Assembly: GCA_951406725.2 (NCBI GenBank)
Contig: OX597815.1
Coordinates: 122,388,001 to 122,452,000 of the forward strand
Length of the DNA stretch: 64,000 bases
Direction of reading: 5' to 3'
Source: Octopus vulgaris
Taxonomy: Eukaryota
Shown: positions 33,001-39,000 of the stretch, piece after piece
How the letters are laid out: every line of letters begins with the position of its first letter
How positions within the stretch are numbered: position 1 is the stretch's first letter
The notes under the pieces: model-generated
Told to the model about the DNA's origin: nothing
What the model saw: only the letters and a program-made list of their open reading frames with translations
Databases searched by the model: none
Position numbers and translations under genes: made by a program

Positions 33001-36000
33001 TTATTTATAGCTTCTTAATCATCCTCTAATAAAACAACAGATACGCTATTAGAATTTTTGCACTAGAAACAACATAGTAAATTGTAAGAGTGAATCTGAC
33101 AAGTTTAACAATACTAAATCAAAAAGAAGTCTCAATCTGTATTTTGAAATGCTTCAACTAAGAGGCATTCTAATTACTTGGCTATGATCTAACCATTTTG
33201 CTATCAACCTGCCTTTGGTTCTATGACATTAACTTCTTGTTTCAAAATTAAATTATAAACTTCTGGTAAGATTTTATAGTTTATGATCCAAATACTAGCT
33301 TAGTAATGATAAAGTTATTTTACTAAATTCTCCAGTATTTTCAAAATTAATTGTAATAAAGGCAGAGTATTTCAACAGAAACATAATGATCAAAGGTGTT
33401 GTAGAAAGATCAAATCTAATTAATAAGTTACAGTGACCAACCTTTCACTTTTACAAAAGCTTTTGTGGATTTATTCATTATTTTGAATTCATAATTTGCT
33501 TCATCATTAAGCTGTGCTTTTTGCACAATTAGTGTATGTTTCTTTTCTTCAACTGTGAAATTGAAATGCGAGTCCTTTTCAATAACTTTTCCTGCTTTCA
33601 TCCAACAACCAGTCACATTTGGTTTGGATACCTCGCATACCAAGAGAATGTCATCATTTTCCATTACCTCTTGGTCTTTTAGAGGACTCAAAAATTCTAA
33701 TGGCTCTTCTGAAAAATAAAATTGCATTTTATATTTAGAAAGTTTAATGGGGAAAGTTGTAATTAATACTTAGTCTATATAGTAGGAATCTATAATTTTA
33801 ATGCTTAAAAATAAAAATATAAATTAATATTTTTATTAAACTTATTCAAATATTTATCTCCAGACTAGAAAAAAAATGTCTAGTTGAATTAATTGTTAGA
33901 ATCATAAAGATAATGAATTTGGTGATAAAATAAATGACAGCATGACAACAAAATAATTCTGCAGCATAATCAAAGTAATTAATAATATAAATTACTAGAA
34001 ACATGCATAATATTAAGTTTTAAGAATTAATGTGGTTCCTAAAGCAAGAGAGAGGGACAAAATTAGAGAGAATAATAAGTGTGTGTGTGTGTGTGTATGA
34101 GGGAGACAGCAAGACAAAGTTAAAGAGGGAAAAGAGTAGAAGGAAGAAGGAATGAGAGAAAAGAGTGAGAAAGGAGGAAAGACAGGATAAGAGAGCAACA
34201 GACAGAAAGACTAATTCTATAGATCAATGTAAGCATAATTCCTTACATTCAATTGGTTATTCCATTCCTTTTATTTAGTGTCAAAATAATTATTGAGAAA
34301 GTTTATATAATTGAAGAATGTGAATCTCTCAATATATACCAACATGCACATCTACCAGAATATTACTAAAAGATTGATGGTTGTATATTTCAGTCTTAGG
34401 ATATTCATAGGATCAGTTGTATTAATAATACACAAGCATATACATTTCCTTATTTTCATTATCTCATAAATTCCATGATTTATAATGAGGACAGCTACAT
34501 GATACACATGAATACTGCTTCTAGAAATTAACCAAAATCAGATAACAAGAATAAATTTCAATTGACAGGACTAACAAAAATGAATTAAACAACAAATCAG
34601 AAATTAAAGAAAAAGAATTGCTGGTGCTATAACTGCTCTTCTTTACAGACATTACACCAAACTATTCTGATCATGTTAATCTATTATAGCCTATTATATA
34701 ATCTATTATATCAGAGTTTATTCATATATTTTTTATCTTAATACAATAATTATTTGAATTTAATGCTTCCTTGTGTTTTGAGGATTTGGAAGAAAACTGA
34801 AAGAAAATTCAGTTGAAAAACAAAGGAAACTGCTTCTGTTTTTAGTGATGATAAAAAAAATCTTGCCTTAAAACATGCCAAACATGGAACAACTGTGTAT
34901 ATATATATATATATATATATATACCAGTAATATATTTAATATATGCAATAGGTTCAAATTATATTATTTATGGTGATTGACAAGATACTTTTAGGAAATG
35001 ATGACATGGGTAAAGTTAAATAGTGTATTAACAGTTGTTGAAAATAATCCAAAAAGTTTTGCTGTATACGTTTAGACAATAATTGAAGTAGTTTATCTTT
35101 CTCTTCCTAATTCACATGTAACTAATTAACTGTACAAATATGAAGAAAAATATTTCAAGAGATGGAATTATGAAACAATGCAATGTGATATTCAAATACA
35201 TTGTTAAAATGTTATCAAAATGCATGAAGGTTAGTATCTACATATTATTTTATTAATAAAGATACTTAAATACTAATTATTTCTGAAAATCAAATACAAA
35301 ACAGTGGAAGTTAATGTAAAAATAACAGAAAATAATACTTTTGTCAATCCATTGTAAGCCATGTTTGGCATCTTGATTACTGTTTTGGCCATATCCTGCT
35401 CTTTGGCCATATTCTGCACTTTGGCCATATTCTGCACTCTGGCCATATTCTGCACTTTGGCCATATTCTGCACTTTGGCCAATGTTATGATCATTAAATT
35501 GATCAATTTTAATGCCATGGCTAATATGTTGCTCAACTGCTTGATTAGCTTTATTGTCAACTGGCCAGTCATCCCCTTGATCAAGTTTATTAGTATCTTT
35601 TAAACTATAGTCTCTCTCATTTGCTTTTCGTATTTTCTGATCCAATTTCTCATCTAGATTTGCACCATCTCTTAAAATAGCTTTATTACCAGATTCAAAA
35701 TATCCTTTAGGTCTTACTTCAGAACTCAAGTCATAACTAGCTTTGCTACCTTCTATTTGATAAAAGTCAGAATCAGTAACATCATTAGCTTTATGACAAA
35801 TCCTAGTTTTATTTGATTTAAGTTTATGATCAATCTCATCTGAATAAATATTCAGCATTTCATCCTCTTCAGATCTTCTAACAAAATCAGAAGGAGCATC
35901 AACATTTCTACTTGTATCTTTTGAGAGTTCTGACAGACCTGTTTGGTTGATTTCAAGATGGTCTTTTTTATTATAACCTTTAGACATCTTTTGATCAACC

Positions 36001-39000
36001 AAATTAGTAACTTGATCAATTTCAGGGATGACCTTTTTGTCAACATTCTGATCAAAGTTCTGGTCAGTTATGAGACTAGTTTTTCTATCTGTAGCATTTG
36101 TAAGTTCAGCCTCAGAACTGGCCAATTGATCAGAGTCTTTCTTGACTTTGAATCTGATCTTTTGGTCAACTTCTCTACCAATTTTTTGTTGAGCCTCAAG
36201 ATTAGACTCCAAGTCAGTGGATTTGCTTATTTGTTGATCAACGTGATAGCCACTATGATTTAGATCAAACTCATTGACATTATCTTTCCTATGGCCTTTC
36301 TTTTGTTGAATATCATCTTTAACTGGATAGTCAATATTTTGGTGCCTATTATGGCCAACATCTTGACCATCTTCTGAAAAAATAACAATTGATATTTGTG
36401 GCAAAGTGATTTGTATTTCTTTGTATGTTGCTGTGCTTAGAAAATAAAAGTGGTAACAAATAAACTAATGAAACAATGATCAACATAAATTATGATTAGA
36501 GTTCAAATAATTTAAAGAAAATCAAATAAAATTATAATCTTCAATTGCAAGAATGTGTGAGTGAATGACATCTTTTATTATCTGTTACTGGTTTCAGTCA
36601 GTAAACTGCGACCATAATGGGGCACTAAAACCAAATTGACCTCAGTACTTGTTTTTTGAAGTCAGGTATTTATTTTGTCAGTCTCCTTTTCTGAACCACT
36701 AACTTACAGGGATGTAAGCAAATCAACACTGGTTGTCAAGAGGTGAGAAGGTCAAACGCTGACAGAAAACACTGATATACACACATTCATGTGTATGTAT
36801 ACATATATATGATGGGCTTCCATACAGTTTCTGTCTATAAAAGTCATTTCCACAGCATTGGTTGGCCTGGGGCTAAGGCAGAAGGCAAATGCCCAAGGTG
36901 TTGTGCAGTGAGACTGAACTTGAAGACTGCAAAGCAAGCTTCCTATCACACAGCCATACCTACTGCACCTGATATCAAAGATATTGGATTTTTGCATTTG
37001 TTCAGTAAGATTCTTGATACTAGTTACACAACCAAAGTAAATCTAAATTAAACTACACATAGTTTAATTTCTAAAATATTTAAAGAAAATTAAACTAACT
37101 AAATTGCTGATATTACAAATGTTATTCACAAACTATAACACTATTTTAAAGTGTGTTTAATAAAAATCATTACATTTTTTTAAATGTAAAAGTGACATAT
37201 AATTTCAAAATCCCATTTGAAAGCATTTATAACCTCAACATTAATTTTTCAATAACAAATTCAGCTTACAGTATATAAATATATCTATACACCTTCATTT
37301 TCTGAACTAATCAACTAGTGTTAAGAAAGCCAATCTAACCATAGTAGCATGAATTGTTAAAATAGTGGCACTGGTACTGGTGATGATGGTGATGATGAAG
37401 GTAGTAAAGATGATAGTAGTGAAGTGACTGGTTGATTCATAACAATAATATTAATATCAATGATGAGAAAGAAATAGTTTCCATACTGTTTATCTGTTAT
37501 GAAACAATACATGACAAAATATTTTCAATGAAAGAATTTTCTTTGCAATCTTACTACTAACAATTATCAAAACTATGCTGTAAGCCAAATATATGTAATA
37601 TAAAGCGAAATAACCAATACACAATAAAAAGAAAATCAAAAATTTGTTTAGATATGTAACAAGTTAGGTAACAAAAATAATATAAATATGAATAACCTAC
37701 CATCAACCGTTAGAATTGCAGAGCTCTTTACACCATCTACCACAATAGTATATTCCCCTTCATCATCAAGTTCAGAGGGTTCAATGATCATTCTGTGAAC
37801 GCAACCATCCACAACAAGTTCAACTCGTTCACTACCACTAAAGATTTCTTTTTCAAACTTCCAAACTGCCTTTTTATTTGGTTTGTTAATTTCACATTCC
37901 ATGACAGCTTTCTCTTTCTCCATAATTTTGATATCTTTAAGTGGTTTCAGGAACTGAACTGGTTCTTCTGCAATATTTTTAAAAGAACTCACTATTATCA
38001 AAGTACAAATTTTGTTTTTAAAAACTTCACTTTTTAAAAAAATATATATTGAGAAATGTTTGGAAAATGTATAATAGAGCCAACAACAACTAATAAAACA
38101 AAATAAACCATATCAAAATAAGAATAATATTTGAATGATTAAAGACAAACTTAATTTCTGATAATTAGTGTTACCTACAACATAATTCTTCATCTTGATG
38201 CACAAATATAGATAAATTGTAATCTATTTGTAATATAATTTCATATTTCACAATCATGGACCACTAGAACAAAAATGTACTTATTGATTTTTCTAGGTAT
38301 TGTTTGTGGAATAGGCTATGAGATATTTATATGAGAAATGTGTAACGGCAGTCATTGGATGAAATAGTGTAAAAGCAATCATTGACTGTTTAAAACAATG
38401 TGGTTAGTGTATAGGAATAAGGTGATGTATGCTAGCTTAAGATGTTAATGTATGATGTATATTGTACATTCATAACACATACAAACACACAGGTACTTAC
38501 AGAAATTCATACAAATATCCTATAGATATAAATATTACAAAGAAATAATTTCTTATTAAATATTAGTCATATTTTGATATCTTCTAATATTTAAGAAGCT
38601 AGGAAAATATTTGCAATTTTAGATCAAATGAAATTACCATCTACAAAGAGAGTGGCTGTAGTCTCCACATCCCCAATACAACAAGAATAATCAGCTTCAT
38701 CCATTAGAGCAGCTTCAGTAAAAATAATTTGGCGAGTAGAACCATCAGAGACAAATTTAATTTTGTCACTAGGTTTAATCTCTTTGCCATCCTTTTTCCA
38801 TATAATGGTGGCATTTGGTTTTGTAACCTGGCACTCTAATATAGCTTCTTGTTTTTCAGTCACATGAACATCATTCAACGGTTTCTTGAATGCAGCAGGA
38901 AGTTCTAAAAATAAGAAAAGCATCAAATTGTAAAAGTTGCAAGCATTGAAACTACTGAGAATGATTATTTCAGGCAGAAATAGATGTCTTAATTGCAGGA

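What the first reader, a model, noticed from the sequence alone, without database searches (positions are those of the whole stretch)
35249..36375. One-kb unique exon inside the tandem Ig array: novex-like terminal exon or cassette spring
Seen: a phase-1 acceptor opens a stop-free non-Ig frame of about 365 codons ending in TAA at 35277, with AATAAA on the minus strand at 35249-35254. A weak donor (A|GTATTA at 35338) would instead give a symmetric 1035-bp cassette. The flanking Ig exons can also splice directly in phase. Established: human titin novex-3 is a unique terminal exon giving a short isoform without the A-band. Inference: this locus may make a truncated isoform lacking all FN3 domains, or tune elasticity by including a disordered 345-aa segment. 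AATAAA is common in AT-rich DNA, so it is weak evidence.
Basis: partly seen in the sequence, partly recalled or inferred. Interest (0 to 1): 0.7.

Follow-up and report, generated by a model that had tools for sequence, protein, structure and literature searches.

The report
Hidden optional spacer in octopus titin
The octopus gene for the giant muscle protein titin has an optional 1,035-base exon, missing from the reference protein we checked, that transcripts either include or skip; it adds 345 residues predicted to be mostly unfolded and likely works as a switchable spring or spacer, not as an early end of the protein.

Summary
The window lies in octopus titin (RefSeq XP_029652063.1, whose model skips this exon). 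No contig spans both inclusion junctions, and levels cannot be read from contigs.

The 345-residue insert has no homolog, no Ig remnant, no compact predicted fold and only 22.7% PEVK. It is a decayed 12-nt repeat with 0 stops where about 27 are expected. Against a sister species it changes like neutral sequence (27 nonsynonymous, 6 synonymous) but keeps its frame. Its donor is unusually weak.

The novex-3-like terminal reading has no support: the read-through tail has intron composition, and AATAAA occurs 1.8 times per kb. It is not excluded.

Best reading (0.68): a normally skipped, length-selected spacer or spring in the Ig array behind an N2A-like element, working like titin PEVK/N2B or the IGFN1 insert. 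Oyster titin has an unrelated repeat insert in the same array.

The parts
35339..36373 (-). Optional (cassette) exon, 1035 nt, phase 1-1, adds 345 residues rich in D, K, Q, S, N; decayed 12-nt (4-residue) repeat; no Ig, no homolog
36374..36398 (-). Acceptor of the cassette, of median strength (score 10.65; 26 other exons of the gene: median 10.9, range 6.2-15.9)
   Evidence: joint 37701>36373 in X2, X3, X6 and X12
35333..35338 (-). Weak donor AAA|GTATTA, lacking both -1G and +5G (0 of 26 other donors of the gene lack both)
   Evidence: joint 35339>33708 in X6; an X12 contig stops at exactly 35339 with 6 unlaid letters
35384..35481 (-). Young 18-nt tandem repeat (5.4 copies, 6-residue unit); two units (36 nt, in frame) are absent in run X5 of organism C
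35277..35338 (-). Read-through tail to TAA (20 hydrophobic residues), the basis of the terminal-exon reading; intron-like composition
35249..35254 (-). AATAAA, at background frequency; no use shown
37701..37967 (-). Upstream Ig (I-set) exon, 8th of 11 Ig exons between the N2A-like element and the first FN3
33442..33708 (-). Downstream Ig (I-set) exon; under purifying selection (1 nonsynonymous, 4 synonymous changes against organism C)
54831..55116 (-). Ig exon resembling the titin Ig in front of UN2A (I80), followed by about 125 unique residues: the N2A-like landmark that places the array
   Evidence: (motif match read by eye)
30854..31150 (-). First FN3 exon of the FN3-rich part, three Ig domains behind the cassette

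Best explanation
This is an optional internal exon of octopus titin that is either spliced in or skipped, and when included it adds 345 residues, predicted to be mostly unfolded, that likely act as a switchable spring or spacer in the Ig chain. SHOWN: the gene is the titin-like gene XP_029652063.1; both inclusion junctions and the skip junction exist in RNA; inclusion keeps the frame; the donor is weak; the frame is intact in a sister species while its residues change freely. INFERRED: (1) the weak donor makes skipping the default and inclusion depends on tissue or stage; (2) the exon arose from a 12-nt tandem repeat and has long been selected for an open frame, length and polar composition, not for exact sequence; (3) inclusion adds up to about 120 nm of contour length (345 x 0.35 nm) between an N2A-like element and the FN3 rod, which would lower passive stiffness or move the FN3 rod away from the Z-end. 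Partly helical stretches may make it a stiffer spacer than a pure random coil.
For: Junctions: 37701>36373 in X2, X3, X6 and X12, i.e. 4 of 8 runs, 3 studies, 2 organism labels; 35339>33708 in X6 (1 of 8); skip in 7 of 8; all with CT..AC ends (GT-AG on the minus strand). An X12 contig ends at exactly 35339 with 6 unlaid letters, while X5 shows the intron start there is unchanged in organism C. T content jumps from 18% to 53% across the donor. Zero stops against 26.5 expected. 12-nt periodicity exceeded by 0 of 500 codon shuffles; hydrophobic-D-Q motif 8 times against 0.55 expected. Organism C: 34 substitutions and 0 gaps in 922 nt, one in-frame 36-nt deletion; 27 nonsynonymous to 6 synonymous among the 33 listed (ratio 1.04), against 1 to 4 in the next Ig exon (Fisher p 0.012). 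FoldIndex -0.20, all 51-residue windows below 0, whereas Ig exons score +0.05 to +0.10; AlphaFold pTM 0.20, 223 of 344 residues under pLDDT 50. Position: Ig-array profile best matches MyBP-C and titin I81-83. Precedent: spliced unfolded segments in titin, Sallimus and IGFN1; oyster titin has an unrelated repeat insert of about 1,200 residues in the same array.
Against: The 3' junction rests on one contig of depth 3.9 with 31 letters on its short side, marked 'between: not known'. Three of the four 5'-junction contigs have only 25-26 letters on the short side. No contig spans both junctions. X1 and X5, the runs richest in this titin, cover the exon only with unspliced contigs at about intron depth, so inclusion may be rare in the main muscle. 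A ratio near 1 also fits no function; absence of stops and frameshifts since the split from organism C is only modest evidence (rough joint p 0.02-0.03, from few indels). AlphaFold, on a single sequence, predicts long helices (52-130, 169-195, 233-259; pLDDT 71-89 in blocks 51-90), so 'random-coil spring' is a simplification. No protein-level evidence; the sarcomere position of this part of octopus titin is inferred from homology only. The runs were picked with the exon as bait, which favours runs that hold it.
Confidence: 0.68

Rival explanations
1. Novex-3-like alternative last exon: molecules enter at 36373, ignore the weak donor, stop at TAA 35277 and are polyadenylated behind AATAAA 35249, giving a titin without FN3 domains. 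This could be a minor use beside the cassette.
For: The frame stays open for 20 codons past the donor and an AATAAA follows 23 nt behind the stop. The donor is very weak. The 5' junction is seen in more runs (4 of 8) than the 3' junction (1 of 8).
Against: The donor is used (X6; hint in X12). The tail has intron composition and encodes a hydrophobic run typical of read-through. AATAAA is at 1.84 per kb and five copies inside the exon are evidently passed. No listed spliced contig runs through the stop and no poly(A) loose end was listed, but 56 and 138 loose-end rows were not shown.
Confidence: 0.08
2. A tolerated, decaying exon: once coding, now included only as splicing leak and without current function.
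For: Nonsynonymous/synonymous ratio 1.04; exon divergence (3.7%) not significantly below intron divergence (5.0%, p 0.17). All three differences between the window and runs of organisms A/B inside the exon are nonsynonymous. No inclusion joint listed in X1, X4, X5, X13.
Against: No stop in 345 codons of heavily decayed repeat; no frameshift against organism C and an in-frame repeat change; acceptor of normal strength; inclusion in 3 studies and 2 species labels; in X6 only inclusion joints were listed and in X3 inclusion and skip contigs have like depth (depth is not a level).
Confidence: 0.12
3. The insert is mainly a binding or phosphorylation platform or a semi-rigid helical ruler (like UN2A or the N2B unique sequence), not an entropic spring.
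For: Predicted long helices over the repeat-derived stretches; three PKA-like motifs; only 5 prolines and 22.7% PEVK.
Against: Residues change at the neutral rate; one of the three PKA-like motifs (residues 96-99) is changed at two positions in organism C; no family, structure or Atlas match. The helix prediction comes from a single sequence.
Confidence: 0.12

Closest known systems
Vertebrate titin I-band unique segments: PEVK, N2B element, novex-1 and novex-2 (PMC5123623, PMC8042602, passages read)
   Same: Alternatively spliced non-Ig sequence inside the Ig chain of a titin; the frame continues to the FN3 region; it lies behind an N2A-like element, as PEVK does.
   Different: Unrelated sequence; 22.7% PEVK and 5 prolines; one exon; it sits eight Ig domains behind the UN2A-like stretch, not three; apparently skipped in the runs richest in titin.
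Drosophila Sallimus PEVK exons 31 and 32 (PMC12063666, passages read)
   Same: Large single exons of an invertebrate titin, included or skipped by muscle type; deleting exon 32 shortens the protein and the sarcomere.
   Different: Composition is not PEVK; a fifth of the length of exon 32 (345 against 1,700 residues); no functional test here.
Mouse IGFN1 disordered segment (PMC5493368, passages read)
   Same: A large disordered segment, alternatively spliced, between Ig domains ahead of an Ig/FN3 part in a muscle protein.
   Different: A different, much smaller gene; no sequence match was found for the insert; IGFN1 was not compared directly.
Oyster titin XP_034304301.1 insert (supplement S1 of PMC12063666, parts 13-14 read by eye)
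   Same: A long repeat-built, non-Ig insert in the same Ig array of the orthologous mollusc titin.
   Different: About 1,200 residues, rich in T and E, with an evident longer repeat unit; it lies several Ig domains further upstream; its splicing was not examined.
Human titin novex-3 (PMC5123623, passages read)
   Same: A large non-array exon with its own in-frame stop available.
   Different: Here the exon has a working donor and rejoins the array; no 3' end was shown.

Membership tests
Novex-3-type alternative last exon | Spliced in from the upstream titin exon | tested here: met
   Joint 37701>36373 in 4 of 8 runs
Novex-3-type alternative last exon | Exon has no onward splice; it encodes the C-terminus | tested here: not met
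   Joint 35339>33708 in X6; contig end at 35339 in X12; intron-like tail
Novex-3-type alternative last exon | Own polyadenylation site in use | not testable with these tools
   Only assembled contigs were served; they cannot show 3' ends. AATAAA is at background frequency
PEVK segment | More than 40% P, E, V, K (cut-off used in PMC12063666) | tested here: not met
   22.7%, 5 prolines in 344 residues (cut-off)
Alternatively spliced titin spring/spacer exon (PEVK, N2B, Sls type) | Lies in a titin gene inside the Ig chain ahead of the FN3 region | tested here: met
   Flanking exons join in XP_029652063.1 titin-like; I-set and fn3 matches; array profile hits titin I81-83
Alternatively spliced titin spring/spacer exon (PEVK, N2B, Sls type) | Both included and skipped in frame | tested here: met
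   both inclusion junctions on one molecule not shown
Alternatively spliced titin spring/spacer exon (PEVK, N2B, Sls type) | Largely unfolded chain | tested here: inconclusive
   Predicted only: FoldIndex -0.20, pTM 0.20 but long predicted helices
Alternatively spliced titin spring/spacer exon (PEVK, N2B, Sls type) | Inclusion depends on muscle type or stage | tested here: inconclusive
   Joint patterns differ between runs, but tissues are unknown and contig depth is not a level
Alternatively spliced titin spring/spacer exon (PEVK, N2B, Sls type) | Extends under load and changes passive tension or I-band length | not testable with these tools
   Needs mechanics and immuno-localisation
Degenerate Ig exon | Residual match to the neighbouring Ig domains | tested here: not met
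   Profile of nine array exons: best score in 33709-37700 is 3.3 bits, E 1.9; Pfam none above cut-off

The most novel reading that the evidence does not exclude
Mollusc titins have repeatedly and independently grown springs out of short DNA repeats inside the Ig array behind a conserved N2A-like element. In octopus a 12-nt repeat became a switchable, non-PEVK, partly helical 345-residue spring in the slot where oyster and scallop carry two more Ig domains, and it is turned on in particular muscle or cell types to retune stiffness in a soft-bodied animal.
Probability: 0.3. Interest if true: 0.6.

Novelty: new variant of a known kind. Interest (0 to 1): 0.38.

Why it matters
[quoted passage not shown] This exon is a concrete on/off element that can be typed by one PCR across tissues and tested mechanically as a 345-residue piece. 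It also shows that a PEVK-percentage screen of reference proteins misses titin spacers that are skipped in the model or differ in composition. The principle itself (spliced unfolded segments tuning titin) is textbook, so the surprise is modest.

Tried and rejected
No whole genome was held for the window, so other copies and the rest of the gene could not be scanned directly. No holder was on record as RNA (14 of the 20 holders are 'RNA?' guesses); their exon-exon joints are what marks them as RNA; no DNA run was laid as a control and table 5b was not given. Only 8 of the 24 listed runs were laid.

Homolog searches for the insert: none among longer proteins; three hits among 1.84 billion representatives, all low-complexity artefacts; no Pfam family above cut-off; no Atlas hit; no PDB hit at E 1. 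The neighbouring Ig exon also found nothing in the word search, so that library is uninformative for this gene and the blanks do not prove novelty.

Degenerate Ig exon: rejected. Twitchin/projectin or an IGFN1-like gene, my first guesses: dropped when the exons matched the titin-like record and not the separate twitchin record. PEVK membership: rejected. The 'L>stop' row in the second run is an artefact of my leaving out site 36125; with both sites the codon reads lysine in organism C. Joints 33355>36153, 35113>36790, 36654>36812, 36746>36808 and 39638>39826 have non-splice ends and mostly short sides and were set aside as repeat artefacts. One of 34 substitutions in the X12 contig was cut from the table and is not in the count. 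Apparent inclusion shares from contig depth (X2 0.18, X3 0.52, X12 0.05) are not measurements. Missing inclusion joints in X1, X4, X5, X13 are not evidence of absence (share filters of 5% and 3%; contigs drop rare forms).

Literature: searches listed no paper on this exon or on octopus titin splicing by title or abstract start (0 papers; two searches listed 15 of 21 and 15 of 19); only the open-access library was searched. Other RefSeq isoforms of the gene were not checked. The bivalve comparison is by eye from the supplement text, not from an alignment.
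Full report
1. The observation. On the minus strand an acceptor (...TTTTCAG) opens at 36373 in phase 1. The frame runs 364 residues to TAA at 35279-35277, and AATAAA lies at 35254-35249. A donor AAA|GTATTA at 35338 would close a 1035-nt exon, a multiple of three. The flanking exons 37967-37701 and 33708-33442 are 267-nt, phase-1 I-set Ig exons. The open frame is not chance: simulations with the exon's dinucleotide make-up give 26.5 stops on average (minimum 14 of 1000), and the other five frames hold 9 to 76 stops. 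AATAAA is chance-level: 118 copies on that strand of the window, five inside the exon.

2. The gene. An earlier scan note (e1-9540877) pointed to the supplement of Loreau et al. 2025 (PMC12063666). [quoted passage not shown] That model joins the upstream Ig directly to the downstream Ig, and two cassette motifs give 0 hits. The Ig at 55116-54831 shares a distinctive motif with the human titin Ig in front of UN2A (read by eye) and is followed by about 125 unique residues. A profile of nine array exons matches MyBP-C best and then titin I81-83, PDB 7AHS. So the order is: N2A-like element, 11 Ig domains, FN3-rich part. The cassette lies after the 8th Ig, three domains before the first FN3. In vertebrates N2A lies directly before the PEVK spring (PMC8042602).

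3. Splicing. Twenty of 24 listed runs hold part of the exon; none is on record as RNA. I laid 8. Joint 37701>36373 appears in X2, X3, X6 and X12: 4 of 8 runs, 3 studies, organisms A and C; short sides 26, 26, 152 and 25 letters. Joint 35339>33708 appears in X6 only (1 of 8; depth 3.9; short side 31). In X12 an 81-nt contig lies on 35413-35339 and has 6 further letters that do not fit, although X5 shows the intron start unchanged in that organism: a weak second hint for the donor. The skip joint 37701>33708 appears in 7 of 8 (not X6). All three have GT-AG ends. X1 and X5, with the deepest skip contigs (2613, 635), cover the exon only by unspliced contigs of about intron depth. No contig spans both inclusion junctions; contig depth is not a level; the runs were chosen with the exon as bait; tissues are unknown; no DNA run was laid.

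4. Cassette or last exon. The acceptor is of median strength (10.65; 26 other exons, median 10.9). The donor lacks both -1G and +5G, which 0 of 26 other donors do. T content is 18% in the last 60 exon bases and 53% in the 62 bases from donor to stop, close to the introns' 39-41% and unlike the exon's 26%. The 20 tail residues are hydrophobic. Novex-3 is defined by encoding an alternative C-terminus (PMC5123623); here the exon rejoins the array. A minor terminal use cannot be excluded with contigs.

5. The peptide. 345 residues, rich in D (12%), K, Q, S and N; PEVK 22.7%, 5 prolines, net charge -17; FoldIndex -0.20 with every window below zero. AlphaFold on the single sequence gives pTM 0.20 and 223 of 344 residues under pLDDT 50, but long helices at 52-130, 169-195 and 233-259. 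No homolog, family, structure or Ig remnant was found; the library also missed the neighbouring Ig, so these blanks are weak. The DNA has a 12-nt periodicity beyond all 500 codon shuffles, and the hydrophobic-D-Q motif occurs 8 times against 0.55 expected. I infer an old 4-residue tandem repeat that decayed almost beyond recognition without gaining a stop. A young 18-nt repeat sits at 35384-35481.

6. Selection. Organism C differs at 34 of 922 exon bases with no gap, and in X5 lacks two 18-nt units in frame. Of the 33 listed changes 27 are nonsynonymous and 6 synonymous (ratio 1.04; 6.2-7.8 synonymous expected if neutral). The next Ig exon has 1 and 4 (ratio 0.06; Fisher p 0.012). No stop arose, but that has p 0.26 under neutrality; no frameshift arose where intron rates predict 2-3; the rough joint p is 0.02-0.03 and rests on few indels. 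Exon divergence (3.7%) is not significantly below intron divergence (p 0.17). The pattern fits selection on an open frame and length and not on sequence. Taken alone it also fits a decaying exon.

7. Other molluscs, read by eye from the supplement. Oyster XP_034304301.1 carries an unrelated T/E-rich repeat insert of about 1,200 residues in the same Ig array, behind the apparent ortholog of octopus exon 40512-40246. The part of scallop XP_021365920.1 that I saw around the slot has no insert. Both bivalves appear to have two more Ig domains between the orthologs of the exons that flank the octopus cassette. These orthologies rest on shared motifs, not on an alignment.

8. How it likely works. 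Shown: inclusion and skipping, frame kept, weak donor, free residue change. Inferred: skipping is the default; a tissue- or stage-dependent factor promotes inclusion; the insert adds up to about 120 nm of contour (0.35 nm per residue, figure from PMC12063666) near the end of the presumed I-band part, softening the chain or shifting the FN3 rod. Confidence 0.68. Rivals: functionless leak 0.12; binding platform or helical ruler 0.12; novex-like last exon as main role 0.08.

9. Comparison and novelty. It works like titin PEVK/N2B/novex-1/2 exons, Sallimus exons 31-32 (deleting exon 32 shortens sarcomeres) and the IGFN1 disordered segment. It is not a PEVK segment (cut-off 40% not met) and not a novex-3-type exon (onward splice seen). 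The kind is known; this sequence, origin and position were not found in the searches, nor in the scan's notes. Verdict: new variant of a known kind, interest 0.38.

10. What I saw of each paper. PMC12063666: passages, supplement search hits, supplement file 1 parts 13 and 14 of 69. PMC5493368, PMC5123623, PMC8042602: passages. PMC12198301: passages and parts 3-4 of 7; it did not describe this region, and its supplements were not opened. Others: search listings only. The splice-site consensus, the FoldIndex formula and the PKA motif are recalled.

Noticed in passing
window 41956-42234 (-): An intact, phase-1, 279-nt Ig exon (101 bits to the array profile) that is absent from XP_029652063.1 and skipped in X1 and X2, whose loose ends at 41021 map to the end of exon 48504-48235. 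Inclusion was not tested.
   Followed up: partly
window 48235-48504 (-): One X2 contig joins the end of exon 49787-49521 to 41019, skipping two Ig exons. The array therefore also varies in Ig number.
   Followed up: partly
window 35249-35300 (-): An acceptor-like site (AG at 35284-35283, score 10.4) lies 56 nt behind the cassette donor and is followed by a short frame, a stop and the AATAAA: a possible micro last exon. Three other sites scoring 9.7-11.2 lie in the same intron and no joint to it was listed.
   Followed up: partly
window 51925-55116 (-): N2A-like element: an I80-like Ig followed by about 125 unique residues with repeated short K/R-ending motifs on small exons; oyster and scallop titins have the same arrangement. 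I did not find it described for molluscs, but did not search for it specifically.
   Followed up: partly
window 570-19683 (-): Long run of one-domain FN3 exons in a repeating pattern of three types; already described in scan notes e1-9540877 and e1-9872422.
   Followed up: no
window 34733: The same loose end appears in X1, X2 and X13 and its letters are not in the window; likely a repeat shared with another transcript.
   Followed up: partly
window 46697-46830 and about 47884-48017 (-): A stretch of about 130 nt appears twice in the 6-kb intron (seen by eye); local duplication or assembly artefact.
   Followed up: no
window 36125, 36155, 36203: Three nonsynonymous differences between the window and runs of organisms A, B and C inside the cassette; likely alleles of the window's individual.
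   Followed up: partly
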